Source: Botryllus schlosseri (Eukaryota). Taken from it: 64,000 nt of DNA. Within the stretch, counting starts at the first letter, position 1. The number at the start of each line of letters is the position of its first letter. This document shows, piece by piece, positions 11,977 through 37,800 of the stretch. The position numbers and the translations under genes were made by a program. Below the pieces are notes generated by a model, which saw only the letters and a program-made list of their open reading frames with translations, did no database searches and was not told where the DNA came from. Where the stretch lies: the NCBI GenBank assembly GCA_051294905.1, contig CM119372.1, positions 3,412,001 to 3,476,000 of the forward strand, given 5' to 3'.

Positions 11977-14034
11977 AATGGTTAACATATTTTGGAATTC
12001 GGAAAAGAGGACCCTTTTTACAAATCATTAAAGTTATATTACCGGACCAGAACACTGCTGATTCTAATTTTTTTTTCTGGACATCTTGTTTTGTTGACTA
12101 AAAAGAGGTCATCTTTCCGACTGCACTCTCGAATTTCCCACTTTTTGTAGTGACTGCTGTGGTATTGAGTGTTGACTAAATGTAGTTTCTCTCCAGTCCT
12201 GCTCCCGAATGACGCGCTCGAGCGTCCGCGTTGCAGATTTATGGCGATTTTTAGTCGAGCATGTCCAGTAGGGTTGTCCATAATTTGGAAAATCTTACAA
12301 ATCCTCGGTTGTAATGTCTTATTCGATAGATTATTGATACAAAACGACACTGAGCCTGAAAGAAGCTCACAGAAAGGCCGTTAAGATTTCGTGCAAAGCG
12401 TTTGAAAGTAGCTGCCGAAGAATGGGCGTGCCACCGACCATAGACCGGCGAGAAGACTAGTAATCAAGAAACCACGGCTCTTGATTGGATAATCGGCTAT
12501 GCTTCAATGACCACGTCAGCAGCAGCTTGCTGATTAGGTGAACAAGGAGTCTGCTACTGGCGGCGATTCTGAAAGCGTATTGTATGTAGGTTGACAGATA
12601 ATGATTTAGGATTGATTCAAGGTATCTTGAGGTACGAAATACATGATGTACGAACAACAGCAGCTTCACAAAAACGTCTAAAGCATGACCGCTTCATTGT
12701 GAAGAAAACCGCTGTAGCCTATATGCCTTGTTTTCAACGAGGGAAAGCATAGGCGCTTATGCAAGTGGCGACGGATTCCTAGTTTCAGAAATAATATATC
12801 ATTATTGAATACAAAGATAAAGCTTAACAATGACACTATAAGTTAGGTGATCTTATTAGGCTCAGGTTGCAGTACATAGTTGAAGTTTTGAATGCTCTAG
12901 CGATCGGCTGAATCAGGCGGTTAGGCTTAGCACTCATCAGATGTTTGCAGCAAATTAAATTCACTTGTAAATGTTTTCAAATTCCCTAATGATGTGGCAG
13001 AAACGGGGTTTAAATGCAAGCACAGGCCCTGCTTGATATGATATGCAAACTATGCTGGATACTATGCACTATGCAGCATTGTCTGTGTTTACCTTTACAC
13101 CCCTTTTCTGCGCGATTATTAAGATATTTGACATATCATATCCAGCATATTATGTGCTTACTTTTACGCCTCTTTTCTGCGTCATCATCAAGGACTCTGA
13201 CAACACTTGCAAGGGAATACAGTTTGATGCAAGCATCTGACAAGTCCCAAGCATAACCCGCTGATTCAGCCGACCCTTAGAGCTTTCAAAACTTCAACTA
13301 TGTACTACAACCTGAGCCCAATGAGATCACACAAACTATAGTGTCATTGTTAAGCTTTGTCTTTGTCTTCCATAATGATATATTATTTCTGAAACTAGGA
13401 ATCCGTCGCCACTTGCATAAGCGCCTATGCTTTCCCTCGTTGAAAACAAGGCATATAGGCTACGGCGGTTTCTTTCACAATAAAGCAGTCATGCTTTAGA
13501 CGTTTTTGTGAAGCAGCTGTTGTTTGTTCATCATGTATTTCGTACCTCAACATACCCTTAATCAATCCTAAATCATTATCTGTCAACCTACATACAATGC
13601 GCTTTCAGAATCGCAGCAAGTAGCAGACTCCTTGTTCACCTAATCAGCAAGCTGCTGCTGACGTGGTCATTGAAGCATAGCCGATTATCCAATCAAGAGC
13701 CGTGGTTTCTTGATTATTAGTCTTCTCGCCGTTCTATGGTCAGTGGCACGCCCATTCTTCGGCAGCTACTTTCAAACGCTTTGCACGAAATCTTAACGGC
13801 CTTTCTGTGAGCTTCTTTCAGGCTCATTGTCGTTTTTTTATCAATAATCTATCGAATAAGACATTACAACCGAGGATTTGTAAGATTTTCCAAATTATGG
13901 ACAACCCTATTGTCCAGCTCTTTAGCCTTGACTGTCAGAGCTATAAAGGAGGCCGAATTTCCAAACAAGGAGGACATTGTCGATTTTCGGAAAAAGGAAG
14001 ACAAATCGTCATGTAGGAGGACACATGGTAACTC
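11977..14034 (-). mobile_element. Family B MITE split by the foldback element
   Basis: 11977-12268 and 13910-14034 match the two halves of the reverse-complemented family B element. Confidence 0.65.
12269..13909. mobile_element. 1.64-kb foldback (palindromic) element with ~780-bp inverted arms
   Basis: 12269..~13050 is the reverse complement of ~13127..13909; ends tagggttgtcc/ggacaacccta; TSD atgtccag/ttgtccag. Confidence 0.9.
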
Positions 14035-16741
14035 CGAGAAACACTGCTCTAATAAGTCTAATTCGAAAACTTGAAGAGCAGCTCAATTTACGTATTGCGA
14101 CATTGATGCGATTAGAATATCGAAGTTGGTATGGCACGGCGCTGTTTCGATGGCGCCAATTTGGCCACAGGCTTCGTCTGTATCAATACTTCGTTTGCCA
14201 CCCAAGTATAAAAACAATGCCTGTCTTGATGTCATCGCTGAAATCTGGATTGCTTACGTAAAAGTGTGGGAAGTCAGAGTTTTCTTTGCTAAGACAATAT
14301 CACCTGTGACGATAGTGGTGATGCGGTATTAATTCCTCGGGTGACATCAGTATGTTGGTTCACACAGCGACGTCAAAAGAACGTTGATCGTTAAACACGC
14401 TATACACTGCCCCATACAGGCTATGTAAACAAGCACTTGGCGAGTTTAAAAGCTGAAAACAATGATTGGGATGAACTTGACAATACCCCCATCTCCAATT
14501 GGAAGCATTATTTCATAATATCCACAATATGTCTGAGATAAATTGTTAGTTTCCATAAATACAAGTTCATGTAAATCCTAACATTCATCCGCTACATCCG
14601 TATAGATGATTTATTAGAAATGAAACTTTATACAAAGTTAGTGACGTTTCTTAAACATCTCATCATAGCAAATTCTTATATGTCCAGTGTCGACTGTCCA
14701 GAGCATTTTCAAAATTCCTTCAGGCATATTTCCAGTATCCTTATTAATACGAAATATTCCTGTGTTTGCACTATAGTCCACGGTTATTTGTGTCAAAACT
14801 GGTACGCCCCTAAAGTAAACTTAGCAAAGTTTTGAAATGCGTTGCGAATGCAAAAGCTTCACTATCCTCTTTGTTAGACCGGCGGTATATTGCTGGTTTT
14901 GTGATCTAGAAGCAGTCGGATGTCTTTCAGGAAGCTGCAGCCTTGCATTCAAGGAGTTGAACTAAAATAGGCCCATACAAATGTATGGACGAGGTCTGAA
15001 TATATAGAAGTCGCGAACGGTTTTTGAAGCAACTTTGACGGAGATTGCGCTGCGTAATTTCAAATAATAATCACTATTATTACGGTATGACTTGTATAAG
15101 AAGCATACCGTCACCATCTCGGTGACAAGGGGTCGGCAGTCAGGCAAAACTAGCAGTACACTTAATCCCCGTATCGATGACTTGGAGGAGAGAAGGGCAT
15201 TTTTCTGTATTTCCTCAGAGTCATAGAACAGTTGATCGCATCAGTAATCGATATGGATCTGCTGTATGATAATGGAATATATGTCATGACGTGTGCAGCA
15301 TTGCCATGCGCCAAGAACATAAAGATTCATACATAAGTATTTATATATCCGAAACACCTCTACCCACATTACGACAGAAGTCGGTTGGCTGAAATCTCAG
15401 CCATGTACTACCAAGGCCGGCTAATCGACAGGGGTACAATCTGGACTGGAAAGCCTTCCCGAGTTCAAACTTCAGTTAAACCATCATGCTAATCACTAAT
15501 CTACTGTGTTACCCCTAAAGATCTTTATTATAGTACTTCTTACATATTCAACACATGTAACGGTGTTTCTCTTGCTAGTGTCTTAAACCATTTCATTTAT
15601 AAGTTCGGCTACTCCTTATCATAATGGTGTATATAGTTAGGCTGTAGAGTTTAGATGCTTGCAGCATTACTTTGCATTTGTGTGATTTCTTAGCAGCAAT
15701 GGTAAAGTAACTTAACATCGCTTTGCACGGAGGTATTTGTAGATTTGTAGACTTGAGAAGGTTTGGTTAGTCACCAAATAGTTGAACGATTCCTCGACTA
15801 TCTGTACTCTACTATTGTGAAATAGCATAGTGTTGGACGAAATTGACCAATACGTCGTAATGAAGTGTGCAGGTATGACTGACTGCAGAATTGGAGCTGT
15901 GAATTGAGCAACACGTGCAGTTGCGCACATACCAACGGACCGCTGTTAAATAGCTATAAAACTTGATGACTTGCTTCGAAAAATGACATCCAATTCATAA
16001 ATCACATCGCGCAGGTCACTACATAGTAATGAGAAAGTTACCTAATTGCTGACAAGAATGTCAGCGAACAAACAGAGACAGTAAGAAAGTCATTTAGCGT
16101 ATAGTCCCGTTCAATATTTATAGCTACACATCGCTATATTATCACTACGAGAATCGATTTGATATGATATGATATACCTGGTAGATTTTGAACATAAGAG
16201 GGGTGTTAGGTGTCATAAAACAAGCATAAAAATATTGAGACAGACGTAATTAATTGGTAACTGAGCTACTGGGAGATGGATTTAGCAAACATTATGTCAC
16301 GTAATAATAGGATTCGAAGCGGTTATAGTAGATGCTGGTCATATTTGCCAAATATAGCTTATGATGGGGTCGCGATTGTCGAATGGTACGCTCTTGACTT
16401 GAGAACAAAGCTACGCGGGTTACCCAAAGGGTATCATTGGAGAAAGATAATAGGTTTGCCCAAAAAACCTTTCAGGCGAATAATTACTAGCAACTCAAAA
16501 GCGACAGGCTTTATGAAGTGGTGAAAAGAAATGTGAATGTTTTCACGATTGGGTTTCGAATAGCATTTACTATAAAAATTTATGGAGCACGACATTGAAG
16601 TAGGCTTGAATATTTTGTGTTTCAGATATAATATCTTCACAACATAAAATTATCCCATCACTGTCAGATCACTTATGTAGAAGCCGAAAAACGCCGTTAA
16701 CGCCTTCAAGTCTACTGTTGTGACACATATACGTTGGCATA

Positions 16742-16873
16742 ATGGAGTTACCGGCGAGAAAGAACGGCGGGGTGACGATGGAAATGGAAAATATGGCGTA
16801 TGCATCCGACCAGCTGTCGCCAAGTAACATACGCCTGACCCAGTATGATATCAACCATCTCACCGTACACCAG
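16742..16873 (+). CDS. TRPA1: TRPA1-like coding exon 1a (MELPARKNGG...DINHLTVHQ)
   Basis: ATG-initiated ORF ending cag|gtaatg, phase 0. Joining to exon 2 gives LTVHQ|AAREGD, a good first ankyrin repeat. Confidence 0.75.
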
Positions 16874-19800
16874 GTAATGAATCGTATACGATTTCCAATT
16901 GGTAGTTTGAGCGTACAAGATACGGTTCGTTTATATTGTGCTACACCCTGCACGCTCACTTTAGTAATGCTACGGTCACGTTCTATACACGTACTCGATA
17001 TTTCCTCATATTTCCACGAAAATGCAAGGATCTTGCATACTCGACTGTTGTAGCTGTTGGCGAGGTCGATTACCGTGATTTTCCCGAAATTTCGCGACAT
17101 CAGCAGCGTCTCAGAGAACGCTCAGAGCCCGAATATATTAAAAACGACTGTAGCTTCTTATTGTGAAGTTACGATGTCATAGGAGAGGAATCGAGACAGC
17201 AATCACCCCACACGAAATTACATTTTTAAGCATTTACACTTGGATTAGAAAGAGGCTGTTACATCCAAGTTGGTTAGTTAAGTTGTGCGGGGACACTAGT
17301 TATGAATATAACGGGTATGGAATTGGAGAATATAAAAGAGGAAACGGACACGGGTCGCCCAGGCGCGAGAGCAGTCTCGAAACGTGACAAGCACAGCGTT
17401 AAAATTCGCCAGGTTTGTAGTACAGCATCGACGCGAAGCAGCCGCTGTCTCATAAATATGACTATCATCTTAAATTTGATTACATTTCGCAATCTGTGCC
17501 ATTCAGTTCGTGCCTGTTTATCGTGTAAGATTATGTGCGTACCGTTGCGGTTATGCGCGTTTACTGTACGCTGCACGTTCCGACGCGTAGAGACGTGTGA
17601 TGTAAGTGAGTTGCCTACTCGATGAGGCGCTTTCGACGATAAAGTATGGATCACGAATGGTATGAATTTGAGTCGCGACCGCTCCAGAATAAGCAATACT
17701 TGCTGAATGTCTTGCAACAAAAGATATTGTTATGTCTGACAGTAGAAAAGATCCGCACCGAATAGTCCCTAATCTGAGCCCCGTAGAGGAAATAAGTGCG
17801 CCCCAATTTAAAATCGCATGTGTCTCATAAAAGAAGTTCAATGATTCAGGTGTCAATGACCTTTTCAACACCCTGCAATTAGTACGTGTGAAGAAAATGT
17901 TGGAAACCATGACATAGCTTAGAGCTGAATACAAAAGAGTCCTTCATAAATAATAATATGAAAGATAAATCTCATGAGACGCCAACCTCATTGAAGCAAT
18001 GGCAGTAATGACAGTTGCATAGATCTGCGTTTCGTGCAACTGGTTGTCGGCACCATCTGCGTTTCATGCATGTCTGTAAAAACGTAGCATGCCGGTACTA
18101 ACATTAGAAATACATTCATTTCGATATGTGAGGCTTGGGTCGCGAGATGTTAATAAATTCTAGGTTTGCGTTACGGGCTAAAAAGTTCAAGAACCACGGG
18201 TATGTGGAATAGCTCTGTTGGTTTGGTTTTCTTGGTTGGATTGATTGAAGTCTTGAATGGCTAAAAGCAATCTTGCACCTTCGCGCGAGACTAGATAAAT
18301 ATCCTAATTCGTAGGGATGGTATGAACCTCTGAAAGGTTCAGGTTCGTGTGAACGCGAACCTTTTTGAAAGGTTCTGTGTGAACGCGAACGTGAACCTCA
18401 TGACGTCACGAGACGTCATAATGCTAATTCCAACCCATCATTTCAGTGAAGTGACAGCCTGTGTTAATGATCATTGTACACGATACCTGGCGACGACTCG
18501 GACCGCATAATGCCGCAAAGCTGAAGTACTATACAAATACATACATATGGTTTAAACGTCGCCAAATGTATCAACTGGGGCAATCAAATGATATAATAAT
18601 CCCATTAAATCAATTTCTTCCGTCGCTTTGCCAACAATTTCGACGAGGACTTGCTGGTGAATATAAGCTTATACCTTAGCGGTCGAGGCCAGACCGGACA
18701 ATGTATTCGGCGTCAGAGTATTGCTATAGTTGCTACGTTGATATTGAGCAGAGTGTGAAACGGGTTTCTATACTTGCTACCGATATTACCCAACATAGCC
18801 AATACCCCAATCGCACGGATTTGGTTTTATGACACAATAAATATATGAAGTCAAGATTGACCCTGTACGCCTGCTACATTTTTTACATCAGACAACGATA
18901 TCAATTCCATCGATTGGTTGAATAATGCATCATTCGCTGACTACATGTAGTTTATTTCGCTCTGATGTTGTGTGATTGCGGGTCAAGCTCACAGCAGAGA
19001 GTCACAAACGAAAAGCTGGATATTTCGAGCAAACTATTGCAACAAAGCAATTAAATTTTTTAAGATTGTCAAGGTGCATGCTCGTTTAGTGTTGCTTTTT
19101 TATTCTGTCAGCACCATGATTGGCCTGCAGTTGAAATGCAATAAATTTCAACCAAAGATGTTACAATGAAGTGAAAATTGTAATATATGAAAAAGGTTCA
19201 CAGTGCAGAACCTACCAAGGTTCGTTTGTGAACGTGAACCTCTAAATATCTGAGGTTCACACACAGAACGCGAACGTGAACCTCACGCTCACACCATCCC
19301 CAGTCGTACAGTACGGTTAGGGCTGGGCAAAATCGAGTACCTGAGTGATTCGATTCTGAATCACGTTTTACGCTTCGAGTCGAGTATTCGAGTATCGCTC
19401 ATTATGACGTCACAACAGAATTTACTATGTCAAAGTTCAAATATGTACCTTTTATGCCACCACAAAGAACATAATGCCTGTTATCCGGCACATTAGAGAT
19501 TTTTCGGTAATTTTTCGACCATAACCAATTTCATTGCACTTCTTGACAATGATGTGGAATGATCATTTCCAGTAACGTTCGTAGCTATGTACTATGTCTC
19601 GTATGCCGCGACACGGCCAATCAAGGTTTCAAGGCTTCCTCACCGGAAAATAGTATCAAAACTAGAATTCTCGTTAGTAAATTAACTTTCAGTTGCGGGG
19701 AGCGTATAATTTCAGTACTCGAAAAAATCCTATTTTACTACTCGACTCGAATCATTAAAATTAATACTCGATTCAGATTCGAGTACTCGAATCATTGTGC

Positions 19801-22800
19801 CCAGCCCTAAGTACGGTACTTGGCGAACAAGACCGTGCCGTGAATTGGCAACCTGAATTTAGCCGAAATTCAATCGTATCGTATCTTAACGTACCATGTT
19901 AGTTCTTTGATGATCATGTCTAACTGGCACAATTTAGTGAGTCATCCCGTAGAACGGTGTGAATCTTTTAACGTGGGACTTCATAACGAGTAGCTCCTAG
20001 TAGTAGTGATATCTCATGTATTGTACATGTACGATTGTACAATGTCATGGGCTCCTTTTATGTTCTAGCGCTGACATTATACGCTCTAATCAGTTGAATA
20101 GAATTTATCAACGAGAATCATGGTTTCGATTCTACTTTTCCATCGTGGACGCCCTGAAACCTTGATTGGTTGTATTACTGCATATACGAAACACTCTAGT
20201 AGCCTACAGTGATATAAACGACTCGTTAATGGAAATGACAGCATTGATCAATTTACAGCATTGTCACAAGTGCAATGAAATGGATAAAGTCGAAATAATT
20301 CGAAATTATTCTTAATGGAATGTAAAACTGGCATTGTGTTATGTGTAGGTCGCTAGGTCAGCACATATCTGGGCTGTGTGATATGTTTCGACAAAATAGA
20401 GTGTAAAAATTACTGGATACTTATCAAGATAGCTATAAATAGCTACAAAGACTCACTCTGCACATTCGCAATAGTGTCCACTATCTCACTGTGAATTAGA
20501 GAATGATATTTGTCACTATTACAGTGTTAAAACAGCAGTTTTATTTGTGCGGTGGAAGCATGCTATTGGTAGCCACCACAATATTGCGACTTTTGCGCTG
20601 GCGATGGGTCGTCGATGCACGACCTGTTTTAATAGCAAGGATTTTATCACGTTTAGTAAATAATCGTAAAATTAATCGTATGCGAAATGATGAACCCATC
20701 CGCGCCGATGTTTCCTAGTATTGTTCACCCGCATATAATTCACAACCTTTCAAAAATGATATACAATCCGGACATTGTCTCGGTGAAGAAGTCGATTTCG
20801 ATAAATACATCATAGTGGATAGAATACGATTTACATGTCTAATACTTACCACATACAGATATTGCATGCTTGTTCCATATTTTGTCTGTAACAGCCCAAC
20901 AGGTAACTATGTTGGGTTGCGTGACACGCATTGGTAAAGATATTGGTCCGTCCGTAATTGATATTCTTTAGCACATAGAATGGACCGCATATATAAACCT
21001 ACTTTTTGCAATGAATCGTGATAGGTTTTTCAACTGTACACGTAATCGAGTAACACTCCTGGACAGCGATTTGTTATAATCAGAGAAATCTGATACGACC
21101 ATGACCGCTTAACCCATACCAAATCATGCTCTAATAGTTTTTCAAACGGTATTTAGTACAACCGCACTTATGTTAAGGATATAATGTATATGGGCCCTTG
21201 ATTTATTGCGTTGGCGATGTTTGATCTCTTTTTTGCCAGGCACTTGCCCGGACACATTAGCAAATCCGTCCCAGTGACCCGTGTGTTTACCTATTTGTGG
21301 AACGCAAACTTTGGGAAATATCGTGACAATAACCAACCGTCACTCAACGCAGCTGCTGACGTAACCAGAGTTGACAACTAGAATATTTTCATCTTTTCCA
21401 AATTATAGAAGAATTAGAATTACTGGATTCACAAAAACTAGGAAATTGAAGTAAATTCCGAATTATAAAAAAATACAACCGAAATCAAATTCAGTTCGTA
21501 TCAGATCAGACTTCATTCCTATAATTACGAGAATGGCAAATGTCTGTATACACCAAGCTTGGCTTGTTTCGCACTACAGAGTTCGCCTATAGCATTTTCA
21601 GGAAAACCAGAAATTAAATTTGACCATAGAAGCATTTCACAAAGTAGATTTGAAATAGGTTACCAGTCTTTCGTCCGAATTAGTCTAATTAAAACGACTA
21701 GAATTATCTCATTGCGCAAGTTTGTAACATGTTTCATTTCGCAGGCGGCCAGAGAGGGCGATGTCGCCATTATCGAAAGGCTGATGGAAAAATATCAAAC
21801 CTCCCAAGCCAAGAAGAAGCGATTGAACTCGCGAGACGACAACAAGCTCACGCCGTTGCACTACGCGGCGAGATACGCGCACTACCACATGCTCCAGTAC
21901 CTCTTGAAGAATGCAGCAAGTAAGACGCGCTGCGGGAATTCATGAACCAGAGTCGAACAGCTAGATAATTTTCTGCTTTTCAAAATTAGATTTGAATATG
22001 AATTATAGAAACAATTTTTCTTCCGAATTTACCTAGAATTAGAATCACAGCTACACAGTTTCTTTTACGAATTACACTAGATTTAGAATTATTGAATTCG
22101 CGAAAACCCTGATATTGAATCTAGTCCCGTTCATAGCAAATCAAACTTAAAAAGCATTCTCATAAGCTTGAGAATGACCAATATATGTACAGTATGATTA
22201 TGTCCTTTCGCACTATACACTTCTCCTACAGGATTTTCAGGAAAATCGTTAACTAGATTAAAAATAAAATCACAGCACAGAAACATTTCACAAATTATAT
22301 TAGAATTAGTATGAGAGCCAAGATACAGTCAACAGTCTAGGGCAAGTTTTTGCAACTTTTGCAACTTTTTTGACAGCTTCCGGCGGCTTCCTAAATACTC
22401 GTAAGATATGTAGAATGCTGTTTTAAGCTGTTTGAAGGAATCTTATAGTGCAACATTTCGCAACTTTTGTCCATTTTTTTCATGCTACTCTTTGCAACAT
22501 TTTGCAACTTTTTCGATTTTTCATGAAGTATTTTCGGTTTTGGTGAAATACACGGCCAAATTCGACTGAAACACCGTAAATCAGCACCGAAGTACGGGTA
22601 TTTCGGGAGCTGAGCCGATAAATTGACTATTTTTTTTAGTCAACCGAGCAAAGTGTGGTCTTTTAGTGACACTTTTGCAACTTTTGTCACACTAGATTAG
22701 AATTGGATTAAAACCATTTGGCTCTAATTCGTTTAATAATACAACTGGATTAATGTACTCGTCTACGTCTGCCGTACATCAGCCTAGGGGGCTTTATATC

Positions 22801-25800
22801 AATGGCACGTATTTTGTATATCGTTGTAAATATTCGCAAAGTTCACTCATTGAACGCGCTGCGTTGCAGATCCCAACCTGAAGGCGGAGGATGGAGCCAC
22901 CGCGCTGCATTTCCTGGCAAAGTACAAGAAAAAGCGGATAGCAGTTGAAGGAGCAAATGACGTAAGACGTATTTCACAACCGAGCATAATATTACCTATT
23001 TTATGGCGACATGACCTTATTTTAATGGGGATGGGGTATGTTGCGAAATTCTCTAGTCATATATGAATTCGATGGCGGTATTATGCTTTATACATCCAGA
23101 TGCGGTTAAAGCAGTTCAAGTTTTTACTCAAGTGGACATTGACGTATAACCCCGCAATATTCCTTGAGGTATCGATTTCCAAACATGTCAAAATTACCAC
23201 AAATCAAAGTAGAAATGAATGCTCTGAGAAGTACTCCGTACTCGGCAAAATGAGCGTGTTTCCACTTGCGTACCACCCCTGATATATATATATACGTATG
23301 CGTGTGTGACTATATAGCCATGGCACGCGAAACCAGAACCTACTTCAGGCTCATACCTCGGTATAAATCGAGTACAACATTTTACCGTAGGATTCGTGAC
23401 TGCGATATAATTCTGAGTTAGGTTCAGGTTTCGCGTACCATCATTTTCGGCCCTTTTGGTGTAAATACACAAGTTTATTTTCTAGGAGTGTAGTTTCAAA
23501 AAGTGGGTTTAGGTGAGGGATCGGATGTTTTATCAGTTAATCGGATGTTGGTACTTTCGCGATTGTAAGATGCTTCTTCGAGACTATAACATACAAATAC
23601 TCATGACACACCGAATAGGTGCAAATATATATTTACTTACCGTGATACAGAGGCTATTTAACGCGATTTTAGAACACCTTAACTCATAAAACGTGATGCA
23701 AATCTGTCCCAAAATTATTTTTTTACTTTCAAAAGTTCAGAATGTAAAACGTAAGCAATTTTTCTTAACAAACCGTTCAAGTACAAGTGGAAGTGCTCTA
23801 AAAACATTACTAATTGAGTAAGTATACCGCAATTAGTCAAAGCCTGCATGGATACTCCAAAAAGTAGTAATTCGTTAATGACCGCGTGCCGTGTATAACC
23901 CGAACAGTCTTTGCGTTAGTAACGGAATCGCAATTAAGCTATGCTCACATCCGTGACCAATGGATCAGTCATCCCGAAATTTACCTTATCCGAATTGGAG
24001 GTGGCGTCTCAATCAGTGGTAGCACGTAATATGCTGTGATATGGTTGATGAGACTCTTGGAAGTGCAGAACTGCAATATACAATTGAGTAGTATATTCAT
24101 ATTGAATATGTTCGACTGATCATCACCAACTAGTAGAGAATTGAAACGAATACATTGCATGTCAGCTTTCAGATATCACCAAATACGACGTCACCGGAAA
24201 ATGTTCGGGTGTATTTCAGTATCAATATATTATTCAATTGTATGTGGTTGAACGATACAACTCGCATGAAATCAGAAGAATATATTATAATCCTTATGCT
24301 AAAAGAAATATCTGCACAATTGTATCATGTGATCCCGACATTATTTTAATCTTCAAGCATATCTCTAATGTTTCAGAACGGCGACTCATCAGAGTCGGAG
24401 GAGGAGGAATTACCTCCCGAGGAGACGTTTAGTTGCTTGAAACTTCTGGTCGAAAACGGCGCTCAAGTCAACGCAAAAGACACGATGGGACTTACGCCGC
24501 TGCATCACGCTTGCACGAGAGGAAATACAAAAGCGGTTAAAGAGCTTTTAATGTGCGCCGGAATAGGGCTTGAGGTAAAAACATATTACTTCCCTTAAAT
24601 ACTGCTGGAAGTGATATACTAGCACCTGATTGTCCTTGTCGGGTTGCATGCACAGGCTTATGTGTATTATATAATTACAGAATGCATATTCAGAGCTATG
24701 CACTGGATAAAATTTTCAGTGCGATTTTACAAAGGCAATGCATACGAGGACGGACTAAGAATCGATGGCGTACATCTAAAATCCTGTGTTTGACCTATAG
24801 TTCCACTATAGTTTAAGCCTTAAACTTTAAGGTGTAAATTCAAATACACAAGATATATCCCATGTGTTTATAGTGTATCATTTCCTCGTGTATCGGCCCA
24901 AGAAGGTACAAAATGGTGGTGCACTTAGTCAGAACCCAATATACATCGCTGGGATATATCTGAATCAATTTTCACCCATTAGAATCGATGTATGTGAAAT
25001 CAAAATAAGACCTATCTATGGCATGATTTACATCCTACACTATACAGTTGAAATCGGGTAAGAAGCATATTTTCAACCCATGTACTTACAGAGTGGCCGT
25101 TATCAAAGATTCCCGCATATCTACTTTCAACAGTTATTTGAAATCAATGCATTCGCGTCTAAGATCGCTTGAATTTTGTATAGTTCACTATGCGTGGTGA
25201 GAATACGATCATCAAACCATATCCGATCACTGCTTTACCATCACCATATCACGAATCACACCTCTAACGCATCAAATGCCCACTGCAGATGACAGACAAT
25301 CAAGGGATGACAGCGCTTCATTTAGCTTGCCTCTATAACAAGCGTTCTATCGTGCGTATTCTCATCGATGCCGGTGCGAACATGAGGGCGCGGGACAAGG
25401 ATCAGACGACGCCCCTACTTCTTGCCTGTGCTGAAGGTGGACTCAAGGTAAAGTGATTACGTGATGAGGAGTTAATGCAGAAAACAATTGTACTTCACAA
25501 TGAATGTTTGATCCACACATGTCAGACTGCAACAACTAGATAAATCTAGTTATCTAATTACGGTAGACTATAGTTGTAGTGGTTCCCAACCTTTTTGTCT
25601 GCATTCCCCACTTCAGATTTATTCCGAGTCTTCATTCCCCACTACCCAAAACCATTGTCGTATTTCCTTTTAACTTATGTCATTACAGAGCAGCTATTTG
25701 CTTGTTCAAGTACCCAAGACACACAACCACACCAGCACGCAGACAATCGCCTATAACTCCAACATAAACGTATTGTGAACCGTATTGTAACCCTCGAAAT

Positions 25801-28800
25801 TTAGCGTAAGCGTTATTTCACATAATACTGGTCGTGCTGGATGCGTTTGTGACGCCAGTATTGGTATCCACAGTTAAAATGAGTTTTTGTGAACAGCTCG
25901 CAATACAATTTTCGATACACACACTCCAGACCAATTAATTGGAAACGGTAATCACGCATGTGTCTCCGTAATCTAATTTGTCATATGATTCTATATGTTT
26001 CTAGTTTTACTGAAAATGATGCAGGAGAATTGAAGTGCGAAATGAGCCAATCTTGGCCTACATACATTATTGCCACTCTCATGCTTCTGAGAATTAATTC
26101 TGATGTGATATGAAGTAAAAGTGTGTAGGTATAATTCCGATTGTAATCCAAGGTGGAGAAAAAAAGTTAGGTGATCCGCAGAATGCTAACCGTGCGATAA
26201 AATACTGCCAATCGTGACTCGTAAAGTTGGAGAAGGTTACGCGCGATGATTACTTGAGGTGTCCCGAGTTTTGAATCTAGTGGTGTAACCTGTTGCATCA
26301 TAATGCGAATACGCGGTTTTGGCTGGATGTTGTCAATTTGTTGAATGAAACGACAGCCTGCCATCGCGTCACGTCATCGTACAGCTAAGAAACGGATTAT
26401 AGAATATTGAAATCGCTCTGCAATGGTGATTACATAATTCGTTAATTGTTTAGTGAAGCCTAGGAGACAATCGGCACGGTCATTATCGGAAATATTTGCG
26501 CGTAGGAATGGTACACAGTGTACGTTGTTTTATGAATAACTAGTTATCTATAGTTTGTTCCGGTTTGTTAAATCATAAGATTGAAACTAACTTATGAGCT
26601 GCGATTACCCGGTTTACTTGATGCTGGGTTGTTACATTCTGATGAAGTACTTTTAACACTACTATACTACTATGTAGAGTGCATAAAGTTTAGTGTTTGA
26701 GGTCGGAAGGATGCTGATGATCATAATGACGTAAAATCTATACATATCAACGTAGTTCGCACGGGATTGCGTCCAATGATTGAAATTCCCGTCGCCGAAT
26801 GGAATTTCGTACAATGGGCGTATATTTGTGCGGAAAACGGGCTCATCACCGGAATATCGAACAGCTTCCGAAAAATTGATTTTAATATCTTGATATTTAC
26901 GTCGCGTACACATATACGGGGCCGCACAATAGCAGGTTCCTTCTGCAGGGTGTCGCTTGTTTGGAAAAGGGGAGTTGACATTGGAACACCCACAACTAAA
27001 ATTTTATGCCACAGTTTTTTTTTATTGGAGGAATTCAACTCGTTTTTAAGATTCCGGGGAAGTCATCGGATCCGGTTTTACGACCCGCATCTGTTCATCT
27101 TGTTTTACAAAGTTTCCGGTGCGTATTTTGCATCAAGCCATCAAGGAAATTATGTGCCAAGTCGAGTTACGATATAGCCAAGGCTAGGCTAAATCGACTA
27201 CCTGAGTGATTCGAATTGGAGCCTATTAGAGTAGCACCCATCAGGGCAAATTTTTAAGCTTATGGCACACTAAAAAATATGGAAATGACTCGCGGCACAC
27301 CTACTGGAGAAGAATTGTCGCTTCAAAATTATTTTATTTTAAAACTTGGTTTATTTCATGTCCAGGCGTAGCAATGGCTATAAAGCTGTCCAAATAAATG
27401 TTCTGCAGTTTTGGAAATGCGATCTTTACTGGATGTCATACACATGTCCGTGTCCGTGGAATATATCGGTGTTGGCGGTAACCGTGCAAGTGATCGGTTT
27501 TATCGGTCTCGGCTAAAAAATCGGATATCTGCCGAGCTCTGATCAAGAGTACTATAGGAGCTCTCTTTGACTTTGACCCAGCCGAAATATGAGTGTGAGC
27601 AAATTTATGGATGGCTTGTAATTTTAAGATTGCTGAATTGCTGTTGGAGAAGGCGGAAGAATTCGCAAAGCGCCAACCATCAGCCGATGAAAATAACAAG
27701 GAGAAAGATCCAAACTACGCGACTTTATCAACAGGTAATAAGTAACACGCAGTTACACCTATATCGGTGGTCTTGATAACGTGTAATGTTATTTATCACC
27801 CCCTGGTAGCAAGTGGTATGGAATAGAGTTAGTGTCATCGAATTTTTGGAAAGTTAGCGATATGCATAAATCTGCTAAATGGGGGGTATATGATTATAGG
27901 TTTTTATTACATTCATTCGGGACATAGTAGGCCTGCGGAATGGGAGTGCAGTGTTTGCAGTGTGACAAGTAGGTTTGCATTTGAAACAAAAATCAATTTA
28001 AAACAAGCGTGTTTCAAACAAGGCCCTCGTTTAAAACTTGCGTTTTTTAAAGCATGACGTCACGAGTATTCAATTGCGACGCCATAGTGGATTGACAGTT
28101 ATGATTGAAAATATAGAGTAACTATAGCTCCTTTGGCGAAACAGGCTTTCAACCACTGTCATATACTAACCAAAAATATCTTTAACCATCAGGACTACTC
28201 GTCATGCAGCATTTTTACGGTCGGTGGTCATAATCATCAGAACATTCATTCCGTACCGATGATCTATATCTACGTACTATAACTGTTAAACCGACTATTC
28301 CGAGGGATCCAACCATCCCATATCTTATATACGTCTGCTGTATATTGGGTGGTAATTGTCCGTAGGCTCATACAACATGTTTTTTGAAAGTATTTACACA
28401 ATTATGGCGTAATTTTACAACTTGAAAAAACATTTTTTTAAAAAGGCCTTTGTTTAAAACACTCTTTGAAACATGTTTTAAGCAAAGTGTTTCAAACAAC
28501 CATTTATTTTAAATCCGACCCTATACTGACAAGCGTTCGAGATAAAAACTATATCCGTGAAACCGCGGGTCGCACATAAGCTTTGTTGTATAGTTGCAAG
28601 ACTCAACGTCTTATTTGGATTTGATAACGCTAATAACGGGACTTAGCTTATGAAATGCATTTTGTCAACATATTCAAGCTAAAGTCCGCATATAGCTACT
28701 TTAGTGAATTTAGTGTTATTTTTGCCCTTCTCATGGACCGCTTGACCTTAACCCAAGCTTTCCGGATAAATCTAAATCGAACATCCATTTCAAGGACCTC

Positions 28801-31800
28801 ACATCTCGTACCGCAAGTTGCGCAAACCTGCGTGAGAATACAACCCAAGCCGTATACATTGAGAGAGAATCATCATTTCTCAGCCGGCAAATTATTAACA
28901 TACACAACAAAAAACAATTGGGTGATACGATATGTGATAGGTCTGTACATATAAGCAAGGTATAGACTAGGGACTCGAGATAACTGAGTCATCAAAGCCT
29001 AGCCACCCAGGCCAAGGAGCATCTTACTACATAATGCGTTAGCATCAAAACTTAAGATTTTAGAATAACTAACAAAACGCGGATCTGGTTTAAGTATAAC
29101 AAATTACACACAGCATCTTGGAAAACAATTAGGAATCAAATAAATGCAATATCGTCATTGCAAATAAAATTTAGCTGAAAGTCAAAAGATCGTTTTGTGA
29201 ACTTTGCATAAGGTAAATTACGGAGTTTACGCTGTGAGTCATTCCACTGGCACCAATTGATTGAATTTTGCACGAGACCAGTAGAATGCTGTTGCACCGA
29301 CATGGGCATAGGAAATCTCGTTTAATGTACGACAGTGAGTTGATGTGCATTCAAATAATTCCCATTGTTTATTACAGCGGTCGGTGCCGCCGAGCTTCTG
29401 AAAGACACGGACGGGGAGAAAAACCTCCCGCTGCATTTGGCCATTGAAAACGCCCACCTTGAGCTGGTCGAATTCTGCATCAACAAATCGAAGGAAGCCG
29501 GTAAGCAAGTATTCTATTCTATCGCTTGCAATGTCTCCAATCGCTTGCAATGTCTCCAATCACGACTCGGCACGACATTTATTTGCTATAAGCCCCAGTC
29601 GTACGTCTAGACTTGGACCACAATATAATTTTAGTTGTGCTATTGGATGCATTAGAGCGAAAGGCAGGTAATATAATCCTAATCCAAGTTTTGGTTTTCC
29701 TGCAAATACTACAGGAGAACTGTATAGCACAAAACGAGCCAAGCTTGCTGTACACTGTACAGCCTTTTTTATTCTCATACTCGTGTAATGAACTGTGATT
29801 CGATCTAAACTTAACTTGATTCAAGGCCCAAGGTTTCACGAATTCATTAATTCCAACTCTAATCTAATTTGGAAAAAATCTGTGTAACTATAGTTCTTAT
29901 TTTAGTCTAATTCAAACAAAATTGTGCCGCTATAATTCTAATTGTAGTCTAATTTGGAAAAAGAACGTGTAGCTGTAACTTGGAAAAGTCTGGTCAAACC
30001 GAGTCTGGCCCAATTCTAATCTAATTTGTTAAATGTTCTTATGCTTTACTTTTAATTCCAATTCCAATCTGTTATACAGTTTTCGTGAAAATTCTACAGA
30101 GAATTGTATAGTGCTAAAAGAGCAAAGCTTAGTGTACAGACATTTTCCGTTCTCGTGCTTATGAGCATTAACTCTGATTTCATATGAACCGAACTTGATT
30201 TGTGCTGTACTTACTGGTAATTGAATAGTTTATTCATATTGAAATGAACCCGAATATTTTCGGCTGACACTAGTCAGGGGTTATCGTCAGCAACTAGTAG
30301 AGAACTGGAAAGAACATTGCAGATCAACAATCGTATCACAAAATATGTCGTCACCTGCATGACATTTCGAATTAATTTCTTGCTAATTCGGAATTCAATT
30401 CAATTTCCAGGTTTTAGCAAATTCAGTAATTTTAATTCTATCTAGTTCGTAAAAAACGTGTGTAGCTAAAATTCGAATTCGAATCTAGTTTTGGAAAAAC
30501 TGTAGCTATCATTCTAATTTTATTCTAATTTGGAAAAACTGTGTAGCTATAATTCTATTTCTAACAACCTATTTTGGAAAAGCTGAAATTTTTTTGAGTT
30601 GCGCAACTCCGCGTATGACGCAGATCATTCCGCGTGTCTCGTCTTAGACTTAGAACTATTGAAGTAAAGTGGCCTTTACTTGTAACTGGCGGTGTGTGAA
30701 TGAAAAATCGTTGTATGAAAAGTGATATGTCATTGGTTTGTAATAATTGTGCGGTTACACGAACCATACAGTAAAATTGCGCAACACGCAAATGTAGGAT
30801 TGTATAGGTTTATATGCGAAGCACAAATTACGTGTTGGTGATGTAAGAGGCTTTATTGGAAAATAACACATTCCAAACTTAAACCACAACCCTAATCTTA
30901 ATTCAGATGCTCAAGTCCGGGGTTGAACAATTAAAAATTGATCCCCATTTTCAAGTTAGATTAGAATTGGAGTTATAGCTGCACAGTTCTTTTTCCCAAA
31001 TTAGATTAAAATTAGAATTACTGTATTCGTATTCGCAAAAACGTGGGAATTGAATGAAATTCCTAATTATAGAAAGAAATAAAAAAAAATTTAAGCTCAG
31101 TCCATATCAAATCAGACTTCATCCTCATGAGCATGGAGAATGACAAACGTCCGTACAACAAGCTTGGCCCGTTTAGTGCTATATGGTCCTCCTGCAGCAT
31201 TTTTTCAGGAAAACTAGAAATTTTGTAACAATTACAATTATCGCATGGAGACATCCCACAAATTAGATCAGAATTATATCAACGCCAGCTCCTAGGAATT
31301 ACTTTATTTGTCCAAGTCTGCCCTAGCTGTCTAAATAGACCAATTAGAACTAAATGCCGATAATCTAATTCTAATCTTATTGATGAAATGTTTCTTTGCT
31401 CTACTTCTAATTCTAATTTGTGAAATTTTTCTATGATTTAATTCTAATACTAATGTAATATCTGGTTTTCCTGAAAACGCTGCAGGAGACTTTATCGTAT
31501 TTCTATTTCTAACCTAATTTGGAAAAGAATGTGTAGCTAAAATTCTAATTTTAATCTAGTTAGGAAAATACTGTATAGATATAATTCTAATCCAAATCAA
31601 ATTTAGAATGGCTTAAAATTTTCTAGCTGTCCAAGACCAGTTTGGCCACATACATTGAACTTGATATTCTCAGGTCTCGGTTCCATGGTCGACGTGCGAA
31701 GATCGCGTGAAGAGACCTGCCTGCATCTCGCCGTTCTGGCAAACAATTTGGAAATCGTCAAGTTACTAATGCAGCACGGCGTCGACGTGAACGCGCGAAA

Positions 31801-34800
31801 CTCCGCCATGGCGACGCCTCTCTTCGTCGCGTCCCAATTCAACGCGCACGTGATAGTTCAGCACCTTCTTGCGAAGTGAGTAAACGTAGTGGTTTTCCGA
31901 CTTTAATCGGATCTGGCCAGGATACATATTATATCATTGAATCTGATCAACTCATTCCGTTGGACAAAAATAAATTTTCCTTCAAATTGTATCGGCTATG
32001 AGTTAAACTTGTCAGGTTGGCTACAAAACGACTCACACCAGATTTTGCTCATTAGCTATTAGCTCGGAAGCTATTGTTTATTGCATATCTTCGGCAAATT
32101 TTACTGTTAGTTGTTTACAATTTTCCACCGTAAATACTAGACTTTGCTCAAATGGAAAATTTTGAGCTCCAATATCTGCACTTCTACTGTTTGGAGTTGA
32201 GTCAAATTTGCTGTGCACCGTTTTTGCAGAAAACTGCACAATTTGATGGGATTGCCAGTAAAATTATTTACCACCTAAAATTGCGAAGCTATTAGAGTTA
32301 GAAAACGTTTAATTTAAAAAAAAAATGAAAAATAGATGTTTCAAATTTAACTGTCAACCCCATGAAATTGTTATGTTGTCTAAAAATGCAACGGATACCA
32401 AATTTAGCTCAATTTCGACCGGTAGAAACGAAGTTATTGGAGTACAAAATTCTGGATCTGAATAAATTAGTATTTGCGACGGGAAATTATTTTTATTAAT
32501 TAAATTACTACCGACCGTACATATCATTATTTCAAATCAGAAATTTTAATATTTTTCAACTCTAATAGCTCTAGACTAGAGGTTGGAATTTAGCCAAATT
32601 TGGTTTTTCGATTAGCCAGTAAAATCTGAAAGGAAAAGTTATTTTTGAACAATCCCAATCTGCATCTTGTCGTCTTTTCATGTCGACATGATTAATTTGC
32701 TTCCATACCCAGTTCGTTCCATAATCAATGTCTGGATCACGGCATCTTGATAAACTGCGCCTGTCGCTTTATTTTGCAGTGGCGCGAACGTGGATATGAA
32801 AAACAACGATTTCTTCACGCCGCTGCTGATGGCCTCGAAGCACGGGCACTTAGAATCTATGAAGCATCTGCTAGACTACCACGCTGACATCACAGAAACC
32901 GACAAGGACGACAAAACGTGTATTATATGGTGCGCGGAAGAAAACAGAACCGACGCCTTAGCCGTGAGTTGACTATATAAACCAGCATTTGCATGTGTGG
33001 GGAACATGATACTGTTCATTTTTCGTTTTCAAGAAATCGAAAGTGTCCTTGGAGGACTACTAAATGCCCTCTTTTTCGGAATTTGTCCTCTTGTTCTAGA
33101 AAAAGTGTTAAAATACTTGCAATAATTAGACTCCGACGTACTAAAACATGAACGAAAAATACGCCCGACGGGTATTTAGGAAGCGAGATCGGAAAAATGA
33201 CCTTTTTTACAGTCAAACCAATATACTATTACTTAGTGGCGAGATAGCGTAGTGGTATAATGCACACCTACAACACCTATGGGTTATAGGCTCGAGTCCG
33301 ACCGAGGTCGACTCCAGAATTCCTACCCAAGTGTTGGAGGGGTATCTAGGCTTCTTGCCATCTCATCTTCATAAGCGGTGTCTTACAAAAAGCCTAGAAG
33401 TATACCGTGCTACAAGTCGGCAGGTACGGAATCAAAAATAAGGAATATCGGCCTGGTGTAAATGGCCATAGTAGTCGGCACACACCATGAATATCACAAA
33501 CAACAACATACTATTACTCGATAACAAATCCAGATCGCCGTTTTCTCCTCCGGTATTATAGTTTGAAAACGAAAAAGATTTTTTCCAGCTCCTCGCCCCT
33601 GACGGGGGTGCGGCCCCCAGTTTGACAACCACTGACGTAGGAGCTTCATAAGTTCCGTATACTACACAACCGTATATTGAAGTAACTTAGATCAAAGAAA
33701 AGTATTGCCTATTCGAATTGGACGTTAGCCCGAAAGTTACGAATGCATTTTCTTAGTGCTGATATTGAATGTAGACTAGATCAGTTCAACCTGCAATGTG
33801 AATGACTATCTTCAAGTTTTACAATACATAACATACCATAATACTGTAATTCCACAAAAGGCACGAGGCAAATTCCGAGTGTTTAGGACAGGTTCTAATT
33901 CGCGGTGTCGAATACTGTTCATTAAAATCCAACCTGGAAGCTATAAGGACGATTAATCCCGAGAATGCCAAATTACCCCTTCTGAGAATAATCACCAACA
34001 GGTTAAGGACCTGTGACTATAATACTTCACTGGATTCCGACACAATGTGAAGCCGATGCTTTTGTCTGGCGATCCACCTCATAATCCCCGTCAATGTATA
34101 AAGTGTGGAACATCACCGAGTACCGACTCATGCATATTCATTGTAAGGCAATATTACGCCATGCACCATTTACGCGTGACTATATAATAAGATTATCAAA
34201 AGAATGTAGGAATATAAAGACGCATACGTTATAGATATCGTATACTTATATTCCAAGGCCATGCGCTAATTACAAGGCAAACCAAAAGACAATACCTTTA
34301 CTTTGTCGGAGTAATCAAGTACTTGAGGTTATGTATTTTTGACTGTTTCCACTTCTACTTGACTTTTTTAGACAACACTAGTTGCTTTAAGCTTGGCCCA
34401 TGCAATACGATAACTGGGTATATCATCGCCGTTGAATTAGAGTGGCTGATGCCCAAATTACACATTTTGAGAATATTTTGAGTTTTCATTTTCTTTCATG
34501 GCAATGCTTGACTTTGACACGATGTGACAAACATAAACACAGCCAAGATATGCGCGAAAAAATCGAAAGATTTACAAAAACTTGATTTTCTATCAATTTG
34601 AAAAATGGATCTGAAAATTTGAAAAAAATGGATATAAAGTACTTTGATTCCACCGCGAAGATATATTCGAAAATTCCACCGATTTGTAGCGTCATAAGAC
34701 GTCTTGAGTTAGTTGCATTGTCTAAAGTACAGCCAACGTTGACCGACTATTAAAAGTGTGCGACTTCTCTACCAAATTTACATTTTGAAACAACTTACTT

Positions 34801-37800
34801 GGCTTCTTTTCAGATCTTCATGGCCGACTTCGACTTGAAGGATTTTAGGCATGTTGAAATAGTTGCTCATACTTGTAGTTGTATAGAAATTTGCGATCCT
34901 GCTTCCGCTTCAACTTGAGCACTAACGATAGCTGCTTTGATCACCGATGGCTTATATACTATACGCAAATATGCAATGTGGTGTGTGTATATATAATATT
35001 ATATATGTGTATACAGCATGCATTCTGTAATTTGTAACATAACAAGGTACATTCGGGCTTTAGGAAAGTATTCAAGCTTTCCCCGAATGGCTTTTCAGAT
35101 ATCCCACATATGCTATTCTTCCGAAACACTTGATGTGTTGGTTAATGCTATTGTATATTTCAGTTACTGCTCCGACACTCAAAAGGTAGAAGCCTCATCG
35201 AAGAGAGGGACAGATATAACAACACAGCTTTACATATGGCATCGTCGAAGGGACATGTTAACGCCGTAAAAGTAAGACTTCGTCTTATTTTGTCATCAAC
35301 ATTTTTCGAACCAAGTGACGCTTATGCCACCCAACGCACCGGATCAGCAAAAGCTACATTCGCTTTTAAAGGAATATCCTACTGTATTCGATGTATCTAC
35401 CTTATCCTTAATACCCGATGGTAGGTGTTGAAATTGATGCTCCAACTTGGATTTTTGGTTCCACATTCAGTCACTGAATTGCATTATTCCATCAGATCAA
35501 ACCAGCACAAGATTGCGACACAATGAAAAGATAGGAGGAACGACTTGGAGTAGTCTTTTGATCAGACATCCACATTGCCGTAGCTAGAACATGTGATAAG
35601 AGGCATGCACGCTGGCTGAAAAGTAATACAAGATGACATAAAAAGGAAACCCGATGAACATGAATGTAACATGTATCGGTATAGGCGAGGTCGATGTGTC
35701 AAATTGTGGATTGTTGGGTATTTATTCAGTAGAAACTACTTGTATTTCGACTTGAATGCGGACATCTGTACAATCCGGACATGCTCGTCGGCTGTCGGAT
35801 AGTCATCGAGATATTGTTCCACGGGTATCGTCCGGCATACTTGATAGAGAGGTGTGTTTTCATGTAATTCGTCCTGACTATAATGGTAGTGGTAGTTGGC
35901 TGGTCATGACTAGGGCTGGGCACAATGATTCGAGTACTCGAATCTGAATCGAGTATTAATTTTAATGATTCGAGTCGAGTAGTAAAAGACGATATTTTCG
36001 AGTACTGAAATTACAAGCTCCTCGCCACTGAAAGTTAATTTATCAACGAGAATTATAGTTTTGATGCTAGTTTCCAATGTGGAAGGCTTAAACACTGATT
36101 GGCTGCATTGAAGCATACGAAACATAGTACAAAGCTACAAAGCGTACGTGAAATAATACATTTTCGAAGTCATAATCATCCCATAACCTTGTCACGAAGT
36201 GCAATGAAATAGGTATGGTCGAAAAAATATCAAAGCATCTTTAATGTGGTGGATAACAGGCATTATATTCTTTGCTGTGGCATAAAAGGTACATATTTGA
36301 ACTTTGACATATGACATTCTATTATGACGTCATAATGTGTGATACTCGAATACTCGACTCGACTCGAAGCATAATACGTGATTCAGAATCGAATCACTCA
36401 GGTACTCGATTTTGCCCAGCCCTAGTCATGACGCGCGTGTGTTGCACTTACGCGCTTTTGATTCCGAGGATAAGTAGACGTCGAATATTGCGCGGCAGTG
36501 GTCGCAATGGAATTGATACATGAACTTCGCGATTTTTGGCTTCCTCGTATATTCTACGTCCAAAACACCAAATCCTTAGGGACGATATGTCAGCTGCACA
36601 CCCAGACCCTTTCGGGGCCTTTGCAATGACACGAAGAACCTGATTCTGTAGTAGTAGTAGTAGTACTGATAATCGTCACCTCTGCCTCTTCACGCCACTG
36701 ATGTATATGTTCGCAGTTTCTATTGCAATATCGCGCGCCCGCCGACATCAAGAACGACGACGACAGAACTACGTTGCACATGGCCGCGTTGAACGGAAAC
36801 GACCTCGTCATTCCCGAGCTGATTGCGCGAGACAGGTCCATCTTGAACGCGGGCGACGAGGACGCCAACGCGGCTCTGCATTTGGCCGCGATGGGGGGAA
36901 ATGTGAAATGCGTAGATACGTGAGTTTTTGTGCATCGATATTTAGTGCCCTTTCTACCCATTAAGTCGCACTAATGCCCCTGCTATACTGCATTAGCTAT
37001 AGTACTGCTATTACTATTATTGCTCCTGGTACAGCTTGTCCAGCTAGAACTGTTGTTACACTGCTATCACTACCACTACACAGAGTTGGACAGCTAGAGA
37101 ATTGTCAGCTTTTCCGACCAAGATTAGAATTGGAATTATAGCTATACATATTTTTTTCCAAAATAGATTCTAATTATAATTACTGATTTCGATAAAACTT
37201 GGAAGTTGAATTCTATTCCTAATTGGAAAGAAATACAACAAAAATCCAGTTCGGTTCATCTTAAATCACGGTTCATTCCCGTAAGCAGGAAAATGGAAAA
37301 TGTTTGTACAACAAGCTTGGCTCGTTTCGCACGATAAAGTTCTCCTGTGGCATTTTCAGGAAAACCCGAAATTACATTAAAATTATAATTGGACCATAGA
37401 ATCATTTGACAAATTTGATTTGAATTAGATTGCCGACATTTCGCTCTAATTAGTCTAATCAGGCAACTAAACTTATCTAGTTGTCCACGTCCGACTACCA
37501 CTGCATATTTAAGGCCACGTATACCTATGCCAAACCGCGCATTTCCAATGCTCAATGTTCATATTGAGAGTTATGAAATAGGTCGAGTCAAATACCCCGA
37601 CACCGACCTCAAGACGATGTAAATGCGTTTTAGAGAAGTAGGTATTCCAGTATTTAGATCATATTTGAAACCGTATTCGTGCAATCAATTTCCTTTCAAA
37701 ATATCAATTTTGATATAGGCATATAGGTCATTCGTATTTATAACCATAATTCGATTTTAAATACTCTATTGCAAGAAAACAGTCGCAGGTAACTCCATAT

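What the first reader, a model, noticed from the sequence alone, without database searches (positions are those of the whole stretch)
16742..17412. Two tandem candidate first exons give the TRPA1-like channel alternative N-termini
Seen: two ATG-initiated segments about 440 bp apart each end in CAG|GT in phase 0 and splice in frame to exon 2 (LTVHQ|AAREGD versus VKIRQ|AAREGD). They share a similar motif (atggaaatggaaaatat = MEMENM; atggaattggagaatat = MELENI). Joining 1a to the nearest acceptor before 1b (ttttaag at 17230) hits a stop, so 1b is unlikely to be a constitutive internal exon. Each exon supplies the start of ankyrin repeat 1, and 1b replaces the consensus His with Arg. Known: Drosophila TrpA1 uses alternative first exons whose N-termini tune thermal sensitivity. 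Inference: an independently evolved, possibly duplication-derived, N-terminal isoform switch.
Basis: partly seen in the sequence, partly recalled or inferred. Interest (0 to 1): 0.75.

Follow-up and report, generated by a model that had tools for sequence, protein, structure and literature searches.

The report
Duplicated first exon, sea-squirt TRPA channel
A sea-squirt sensory ion-channel gene carries two diverged copies of its first coding exon, and the second copy is likely used from its own start site to give the channel a different front end, as insect and mite TRPA1 genes do, though any effect on heat or chemical sensing is untested.

Summary
Exon 1b is a true homologue of exon 1a. Both run exactly 96 nt from the shared Met motif to a phase-0 CAG|GT donor. 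1b is the top non-self match among 1,471 open GT-ended frames, against both this gene's 1a and a related ascidian's exon 1. The 1a-to-exon-2 junction is seen directly in one run's contig. For 1b the evidence is indirect: one run has a separate 1b contig at 1a-like depth, and its contigs fork exactly where a 1b-to-exon-2 splice would leave the genome, while a DNA-like run does not fork there. No junction letters were displayed. Against: the 1b donor is weak, unspliced forms are common, four sampled raw RNA runs had no 1b read, and no 1b-type protein was found in other species. The gene looks closer to the uncharacterised invertebrate TRPA1-like clade than to fly or human TRPA1, so thermal tuning is only an analogy. 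Verdict: a likely real, lineage-restricted N-terminal exon-duplication isoform switch; new member of a known kind.

The parts
16633..16873 (+). Exon 1a, ancestral-type first exon (CDS from ATG 16742; 5' end at or upstream of 16633)
   Evidence: 66% identical to the related ascidian N-terminus; X4 contig 16633-16874 continues into exon-2 letters; X1 contig 16673-16874 has the same geometry
16778..16873 (+). Duplicated unit, copy a (32 codons, Met motif to donor)
   Evidence: ungapped alignment to copy b, 46/96 nt, 8/32 aa
16874..16879 (+). 1a donor GTAATG (strong)
   Evidence: score 8.5 within the gene's own 5.0-10.4 range; used in X4
17128..17412 (+). Exon 1b, likely alternative first exon (5' end at or upstream of 17128; CDS from ATG 17302 or 17317; 2-codon uORF at 17174)
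   Evidence: X1 contig 17128-17399 depth 10.7 with no cover over 16888-17115; X5 contig from 17199; ATG list
17317..17412 (+). Duplicated unit, copy b (32 codons); last 16 residues hold 6 Lys/Arg against 1 in copy a
17413..17418 (+). 1b donor GTTTGT (weak, +3 T)
   Evidence: score 3.7, below all 23 downstream donors of the gene; X1 contigs fork at 17414
21745..21919 (+). Shared exon 2: rest of ankyrin repeat 1 and repeat 2
   Evidence: Pfam ankyrin hits, Ank_4 profile matched from position 4; 82% identical to relative
21745..61525 (+). Shared body of the TRPA channel gene (23 exons mapped by homology plus one predicted 31-nt exon at 50456-50486; 3' end not modelled)

Best explanation
This ascidian TRPA channel gene holds two homologous tandem copies of its first coding exon; 1a is spliced to exon 2, and 1b is likely a second first exon with its own start that splices, less efficiently, to the same exon 2, and so would give a channel with a different ~35-residue N-terminus and an altered cap on ankyrin repeat 1. 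Shown: homology, equal length and phase, open frames, the 1a junction, contig cover of 1b. Inferred: a local tandem duplication (offset 539 nt) in the styelid lineage copied the coding tail and donor of exon 1; the copy gained or kept a start near 17128; promoter choice makes the two exons mutually exclusive. Inferred from an AlphaFold model of the Ciona orthologue: the last ~11 exon-1 residues form a short capping helix plus the first turn of repeat 1, and the rest is disordered. 1b keeps the invariant Asp, two hydrophobic positions and the final Gln, but swaps Ile, Thr and His for Lys, Lys and Arg. The likely effect is a looser, basic N-cap that shifts gating sensitivity or trafficking in the cells using the 1b start, not a new pore function.
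For: Flanks at the same offset show 6-13 of 30 matches. Constraint: pS 0.73 (saturated) vs pN 0.47, dN/dS about 0.28; neutral simulation gives no stop plus score of 34 or more in 0.65% of 50,000 trials; about 5.7 indels expected at this distance, none seen. No indel in 1b in the three runs that cover it; listed changes are T4A and a silent Val codon. Transcription: X1 covers 17128-17399 at depth 10.7 against 11 for 1a, with no cover between them. Splicing: X1 contigs restart at 17384 on both alleles, and depth falls from 23.3 at 17400 to 7.64 at 17422, while X12 runs 17370-17506 unbroken. Of 5 simulated graphs, only the 2 with a 1b-to-exon-2 splice reproduce both the 17384 starts and the 227-nt 1a contig. 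Structure. Precedent: PMC4843866, PMC4929936, PMC9741552 (passages).
Against: The 1b junction letters were not displayed; the case rests on contig geometry in 1 of 3 presumed-RNA contig runs, and these runs are only guessed to be RNA. X5 reads through the donor unspliced, and X4 has no 1b contig yet ends its 1a contig at the same base, which an allele at 21771 would also explain. 0 reads on 1b in 4 of 4 raw runs (3-13% of each read; the gene is nearly silent there, about 85 read-bases on 1a in X20 only). The donor is weaker than 23 of 23 others. 8 of 8 isoforms of the closest relative, 3 of 3 Clavelina and the full-length Ciona isoforms start with a 1a-type head. 1b searches found no relative. 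1b has changed most where 1a is most conserved, which also fits decay. The dN/dS estimate rests on 32 codons and on a pair found because it aligns.
Confidence: 0.7

Rival explanations
1. 1b is a decaying duplicate: still transcribed and sometimes spliced, but its product is neutral noise or is not folded or trafficked.
For: Weak donor; roughly half of the X1 depth and the whole X5 contig continue into the intron; loss of Thr, His and a hydrophobic cap residue kept in the ascidian 1a heads; no orthologue found.
Against: Exact length and phase, no stop or indel after about 0.9 substitutions per site, and saturated synonymous sites; depth equal to 1a in X1; a paralogue in the same genome has a +3 T donor on its own predicted first exon; His is not invariant among relatives (Gln in 1 of 9 rows).
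Confidence: 0.17
2. 1b transcription mainly serves regulation: an internal promoter yields unspliced or prematurely ended RNA that dampens or replaces 1a output in some tissues, and protein from 1b is minor.
For: X5 has only an unspliced 17199-17745 contig and no 1a cover; weak donor; short uORF at 17174.
Against: Does not explain retention of the reading frame and of protein-level similarity; fork at the donor in X1.
Confidence: 0.07
3. 1b is an internal cassette or tandem exon spliced after 1a through the AG at 17276-17277.
For: That join is open and in frame (1 of 28 AGs).
Against: Poor pyrimidine tract; the X1 contig passes through 17277 from 17128 unbroken; 1a joins exon 2 directly in X4.
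Confidence: 0.03
4. 1b is a chance intronic ORF and the contig signals come from DNA or alleles.
For: X1 and X5 are only guessed to be RNA, and X1 has some cover elsewhere (16215-16443, 17420-17723).
Against: Homology scores about 5 sd above the null against two references; the DNA-like run lacks the fork.
Confidence: 0.03

Closest known systems
Drosophila and mosquito TrpA1 (A)/(B) isoforms (PMC4843866, PMC10073219; passages read)
   Same: One TRPA gene, two N-termini ahead of the ankyrin repeats, shared remainder.
   Different: There the thermal difference is measured (Q10 about 9 vs 116); here nothing is measured. The ascidian gene is probably not the fly orthologue. Here the two heads are homologous duplicates that include the start of repeat 1; the passages read do not describe the fly heads as duplicates.
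Tropilaelaps TmTRPA1a/b/c and Varroa VdTRPA1 L/S (PMC4929936; passages read)
   Same: Isoforms from different transcription starts, with the start codon in the unique 5' exon; N-terminus sets chemical sensitivity.
   Different: Arthropod TRPA1, 5' RACE-verified, heads differ greatly in length; here heads are similar in length (44 vs 32-37 aa) and homologous.
N-terminal tandem duplicated exon substitutions (PMC9741552; passages read: 40 of 236 human events, enriched in ion channels)
   Same: Homologous, mutually exclusive 5' coding exons in an ion-channel gene.
   Different: Most described events are ancient; this one appears lineage-restricted and asymmetric (1b carries 16 sites where both 1a-type sequences agree against it).
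Ascidian TRPA1 homologues (P0001/P0011-P0017, Clavelina P0002/18/19, Ciona P0006/23)
   Same: Orthologous protein, 1a-type head.
   Different: No annotated isoform has a 1b-type head; their genomes could not be inspected.

Membership tests
TRPA channel family | Long N-terminal ankyrin array | tested here: met
   Pfam ankyrin hits on the orthologue P0016 and on exon 2; window exons map along it at 55-92% identity
TRPA channel family | Six-TM ion-transport domain closest to TRPA1 among solved channels | tested here: met
   PF00520 on P0016; the S4-S5 exon's 9 best PDB hits are TRPA1 chains, ahead of TRPV
TRPA1 sensu stricto (human/fly orthologue) | Closer to human and fly TRPA1 than to invertebrate TRPA1-like proteins | tested here: inconclusive
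TRPA1 sensu stricto (human/fly orthologue) | Electrophile-reactive linker cysteines | tested here: inconclusive
   The linker exon gave no PDB match, so positions could not be mapped by tool; one Cys is shared by the 8 relatives printed
N-terminal tandem duplicated exon substitution | Two adjacent homologous coding exons in the same phase | tested here: met
N-terminal tandem duplicated exon substitution | Each exon spliced alone to the shared next exon | tested here: inconclusive
   1a direct (X4); 1b indirect from contig forks in X1
N-terminal tandem duplicated exon substitution | Both copies conserved across species | tested here: inconclusive
   No 1b relative in protein searches; no related eukaryote genome available; within-pair dN/dS about 0.28
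Alternative-promoter first exon | Own capped 5' end upstream of 1b | tested here: inconclusive
   Contigs begin at 17128 and 17199 with no X1 cover over 16888-17115, but contigs cannot show a start
Fly-type thermal isoform switch | Isoforms differ in heat or chemical response and in tissue | not testable with these tools
   Needs heterologous recording and in situ data

The most novel reading that the evidence does not exclude
A chordate TRPA channel has independently evolved a promoter-switched N-terminal isoform pair by tandem duplication of the exon that caps ankyrin repeat 1. The basic 1b cap retunes thermal or chemical gating in a separate cell type, giving a natural 32-residue swap experiment in the uncharacterised TRPA1-like clade.
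Probability: 0.3. Interest if true: 0.7.

Novelty: new member of a known kind. Interest (0 to 1): 0.45.

Why it matters
How the extreme N-terminus sets TRPA sensitivity is still open: that segment is missing from the fly cryo-EM maps (PMC10073219, passages). Two homologous, equal-length heads on one channel give a clean swap test. If 1b is functional, it extends the alternative-N-terminus strategy known from insects and mites to a chordate and, probably, to the TRPA1-like clade, which a 2024 review calls functionally uncharacterised (PMC11526382, passages). Alternative first exons and duplicated-exon swaps are themselves common, so the surprise is moderate.

Tried and rejected
No RNA holder was listed on record in the run search. 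Four raw RNA runs (X20, X22, X24, X18; 4 of the 7 raw runs listed) gave no listed joint in the gene and almost no exon cover, so they have no power. Contigs were laid for 4 of the 17 contig runs listed; X4 had no cover of 1b. The 26-base reach of the 1a contig into exon 2 was first read as proof of a merge with 1b; an allele at 21771 gives the same length, so it is not used alone. Protein searches with 1b: 3 candidates, none scored; 2 HMMER hits, both unrelated repeat proteins. Exon-2 search gave 8 proteins, only the known relative close. Metagenome scan gave 80 loci; 5 were examined (L006-L010). They keep the same intron position inside repeat 1, and where an exon 1 was recognisable (4 of 5) it was single, but they are too distant and hold only 1.4-8 kb upstream. 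Paralogues: C4 has one first exon in 6.7 kb upstream; the C8 first exon was not found; C15 was not examined. Spliced-leader addition was not seen at three contig starts. Dating the duplication failed: 4 sites group 1b with this 1a and 4 with the relative's. PDB alignment of the linker cysteines failed. Ten paper searches listed no report of ascidian TRPA N-terminal isoforms; the library lacks most subscription journals. Earlier-findings look-ups returned nothing.

Full report
Identity. The window is from a 495.5-Mb genome in 219 contigs. The S4-S5 exon matches an ascidian TRPA1 homologue at 94% and Clavelina and Ciona proteins at 80-86%. The closest protein's label is cut to 'Tax=S'; I read it as Styela clava from recall of its accessions. 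The gene runs on the + strand from about 16.6 kb to beyond 61.5 kb, with 23 downstream exons mapped by homology. Three further TRPA-like loci lie on other contigs.

Observation. All coordinates check out. 1a gives 44 codons from ATG 16742, 1b gives 37 from 17302 or 32 from 17317; both end in CAG|GT in phase 0 and join exon 2 (21745) and the next 15 exons without a stop. They are the only two ATG-opened frames of 30 or more codons ending in CAG|GT in the first 21.7 kb of the + strand.

Homology. From the Met motif to the donor both exons are 96 nt. Ungapped they share 46/96 nt (14, 19 and 13 by codon position) and 8/32 residues. Among 1,471 stop-free GT-ended 32-codon frames on both strands, 1b is the best non-self match to 1a (34; next 12) and to the relative's exon-1 tail (35; next 14). 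With the first six residues and the last one removed, 1b scores 23 against the relative (0 of 1,469 null frames reach it) but only 5 against this gene's 1a (18 of 1,469 reach it). Flanks at the same offset are at or near background. The region is single-copy. A paralogue on C4 and the metagenome loci examined have an intron at the same place inside ankyrin repeat 1, so the split is ancestral and 1a is the ancestral type.

Constraint. Between the copies pS is 0.73 and pN 0.47 (dN/dS about 0.28, imprecise). Random mutation of 1a to the same distance leaves no stop in 28% of trials, and no stop plus a score of 34 or more in 0.65%. At the indel-to-substitution ratio of X12 (4 to 60), 5.7 indels are expected and none is seen. 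These tests are conditioned on a pair found because it aligns. No indel is listed in 1b in X1, X5 or X12; the listed coding changes are T4A and a silent one, and 24 of 64 difference rows were not shown.

Expression. Four raw RNA runs, sampled at 3-13%, barely touch the gene: about 85 read-bases on 1a in X20, none on 1b, none on exon 3. In whole-run contigs, X4 has 16633-16874 followed by 25 exon-2 letters, a direct 1a junction. X1 has a 1a contig of the same geometry (depth 11; its loose letters were not printed) and a separate contig 17128-17399 (depth 10.7), with no cover over 16888-17115. Beyond the allele at 17400, both X1 allele contigs restart at 17384, and depth drops from 23.3 at 17400 to 7.64 at 17422. 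In X12, which covers all 30 bins like DNA, the matching contig runs 17370-17506. Simulated 31-mer graphs reproduce the 17384 starts only when 1b is spliced to exon 2, because exon 2 shares the intron's first G and differs at 17414 (2 of 5 models). Roughly half of the X1 depth leaves the genome there. X5 has one unspliced contig 17199-17745 and no 1a cover. X4 has no 1b cover. X1, X4 and X5 are RNA by the tool's guess. So 1b use is likely but rests on geometry in one run. The 1b donor scores 3.7, below all 23 other donors (5.0-10.4) and matched or exceeded by 13% of + strand GTs, which fits partial splicing.

Conservation elsewhere. All 8 isoforms of the closest relative, 3 of 3 Clavelina isoforms and both full-length Ciona isoforms begin with a 1a-type head. 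Searches with 1b found no relative. No related eukaryote genome could be read, so absence is not shown.

Mechanism. In an AlphaFold model of the Ciona N-terminal fragment (mean pLDDT 79.6), residues 1-49 are disordered, 52-57 form a short helix, and 60-66 form helix 1 of repeat 1. Exon 1 thus supplies a cap and the first turn. In that stretch 1b keeps the Asp shared by the four ascidian 1a-type heads, two hydrophobic positions and the last Gln, and replaces Ile, Thr and His with Lys, Lys and Arg. Its last 16 residues hold 6 Lys/Arg against 1, and it has three [ST]-x-[RK] motifs against none (reading these as kinase sites is recalled consensus only). I infer a channel with the same pore and a looser basic cap, made in cells that use the 1b start. 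The 1b isoform itself was not modelled.

Comparison. Fly and mosquito TrpA1 isoforms differ in N-termini and heat sensitivity (PMC4843866, passages). Mite isoforms from different starts differ in chemical sensitivity (PMC4929936, passages). The isoform-specific N-terminus is unresolved in the fly structures (PMC10073219, passages). N-terminal duplicated-exon swaps are a known class enriched in ion channels (PMC9741552, passages). [quoted passage not shown] The S4-S5 exon scores 64-74 bits against six crustacean, cnidarian, echinoderm and unnamed TRPA1 'homolog/-like' proteins and 37-39 against human and fly TRPA1. This suggests the TRPA1-like subfamily, described as not functionally characterised (PMC11526382, passages; that passage does not list tunicates). 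No supplements were read. Ten searches listed no report of this arrangement in ascidians.

Verdict. Duplication about 95% sure; spliced alternative first exon about 80%; a selected, functionally distinct isoform about 55%; thermal tuning specifically under 20%. New member of a known kind, interest 0.45.

Noticed in passing
window 38903-38923: Candidate 21-nt phase-0 microexon with good splice signals between the last ankyrin exons. The closest relative, Clavelina and Ciona all toggle a 6-7 residue insert at exactly this site, which suggests a conserved alternatively spliced microexon; the sequences themselves are not similar and no RNA was checked.
   Followed up: partly
window 43522-45945: The closest relative has an optional 14-residue segment in the ankyrin-to-S1 linker, the same general region as the fly's second isoform site; no matching exon was found here.
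   Followed up: partly
window 50456-50486: Predicted 31-nt exon that restores the frame between the exons ending 48288 and starting 51274.
   Followed up: partly
window 16215-16443: X1 contig (depth 6.7) upstream of exon 1a: possible upstream non-coding exon, outron or DNA carry-over.
   Followed up: no
window 16817: T>C allele in X4 changes 1a Ser26 to Pro.
   Followed up: no
window 54471-55211: 246-codon open frame inside an intron on the + strand that reads like the 3' part of a non-LTR retrotransposon ORF (resemblance recalled, not tested).
   Followed up: no
window 12190-13980: Long inverted arrangement: sequence near 12200-12900 appears again reverse-complemented near 13250-13980, as in a non-autonomous DNA transposon (seen by eye).
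   Followed up: no
window 18186-19955, 21372-21725, 22080-22787, 23850-24200: Dispersed repeats in introns 1-3 that draw nearly all RNA reads laid on the region.
   Followed up: no
G000:C4:775857 and C8:4846800, C15:23314772: Three further TRPA-like genes in the genome; the C4 paralogue has a single predicted first exon with a +3 T donor.
   Followed up: partly
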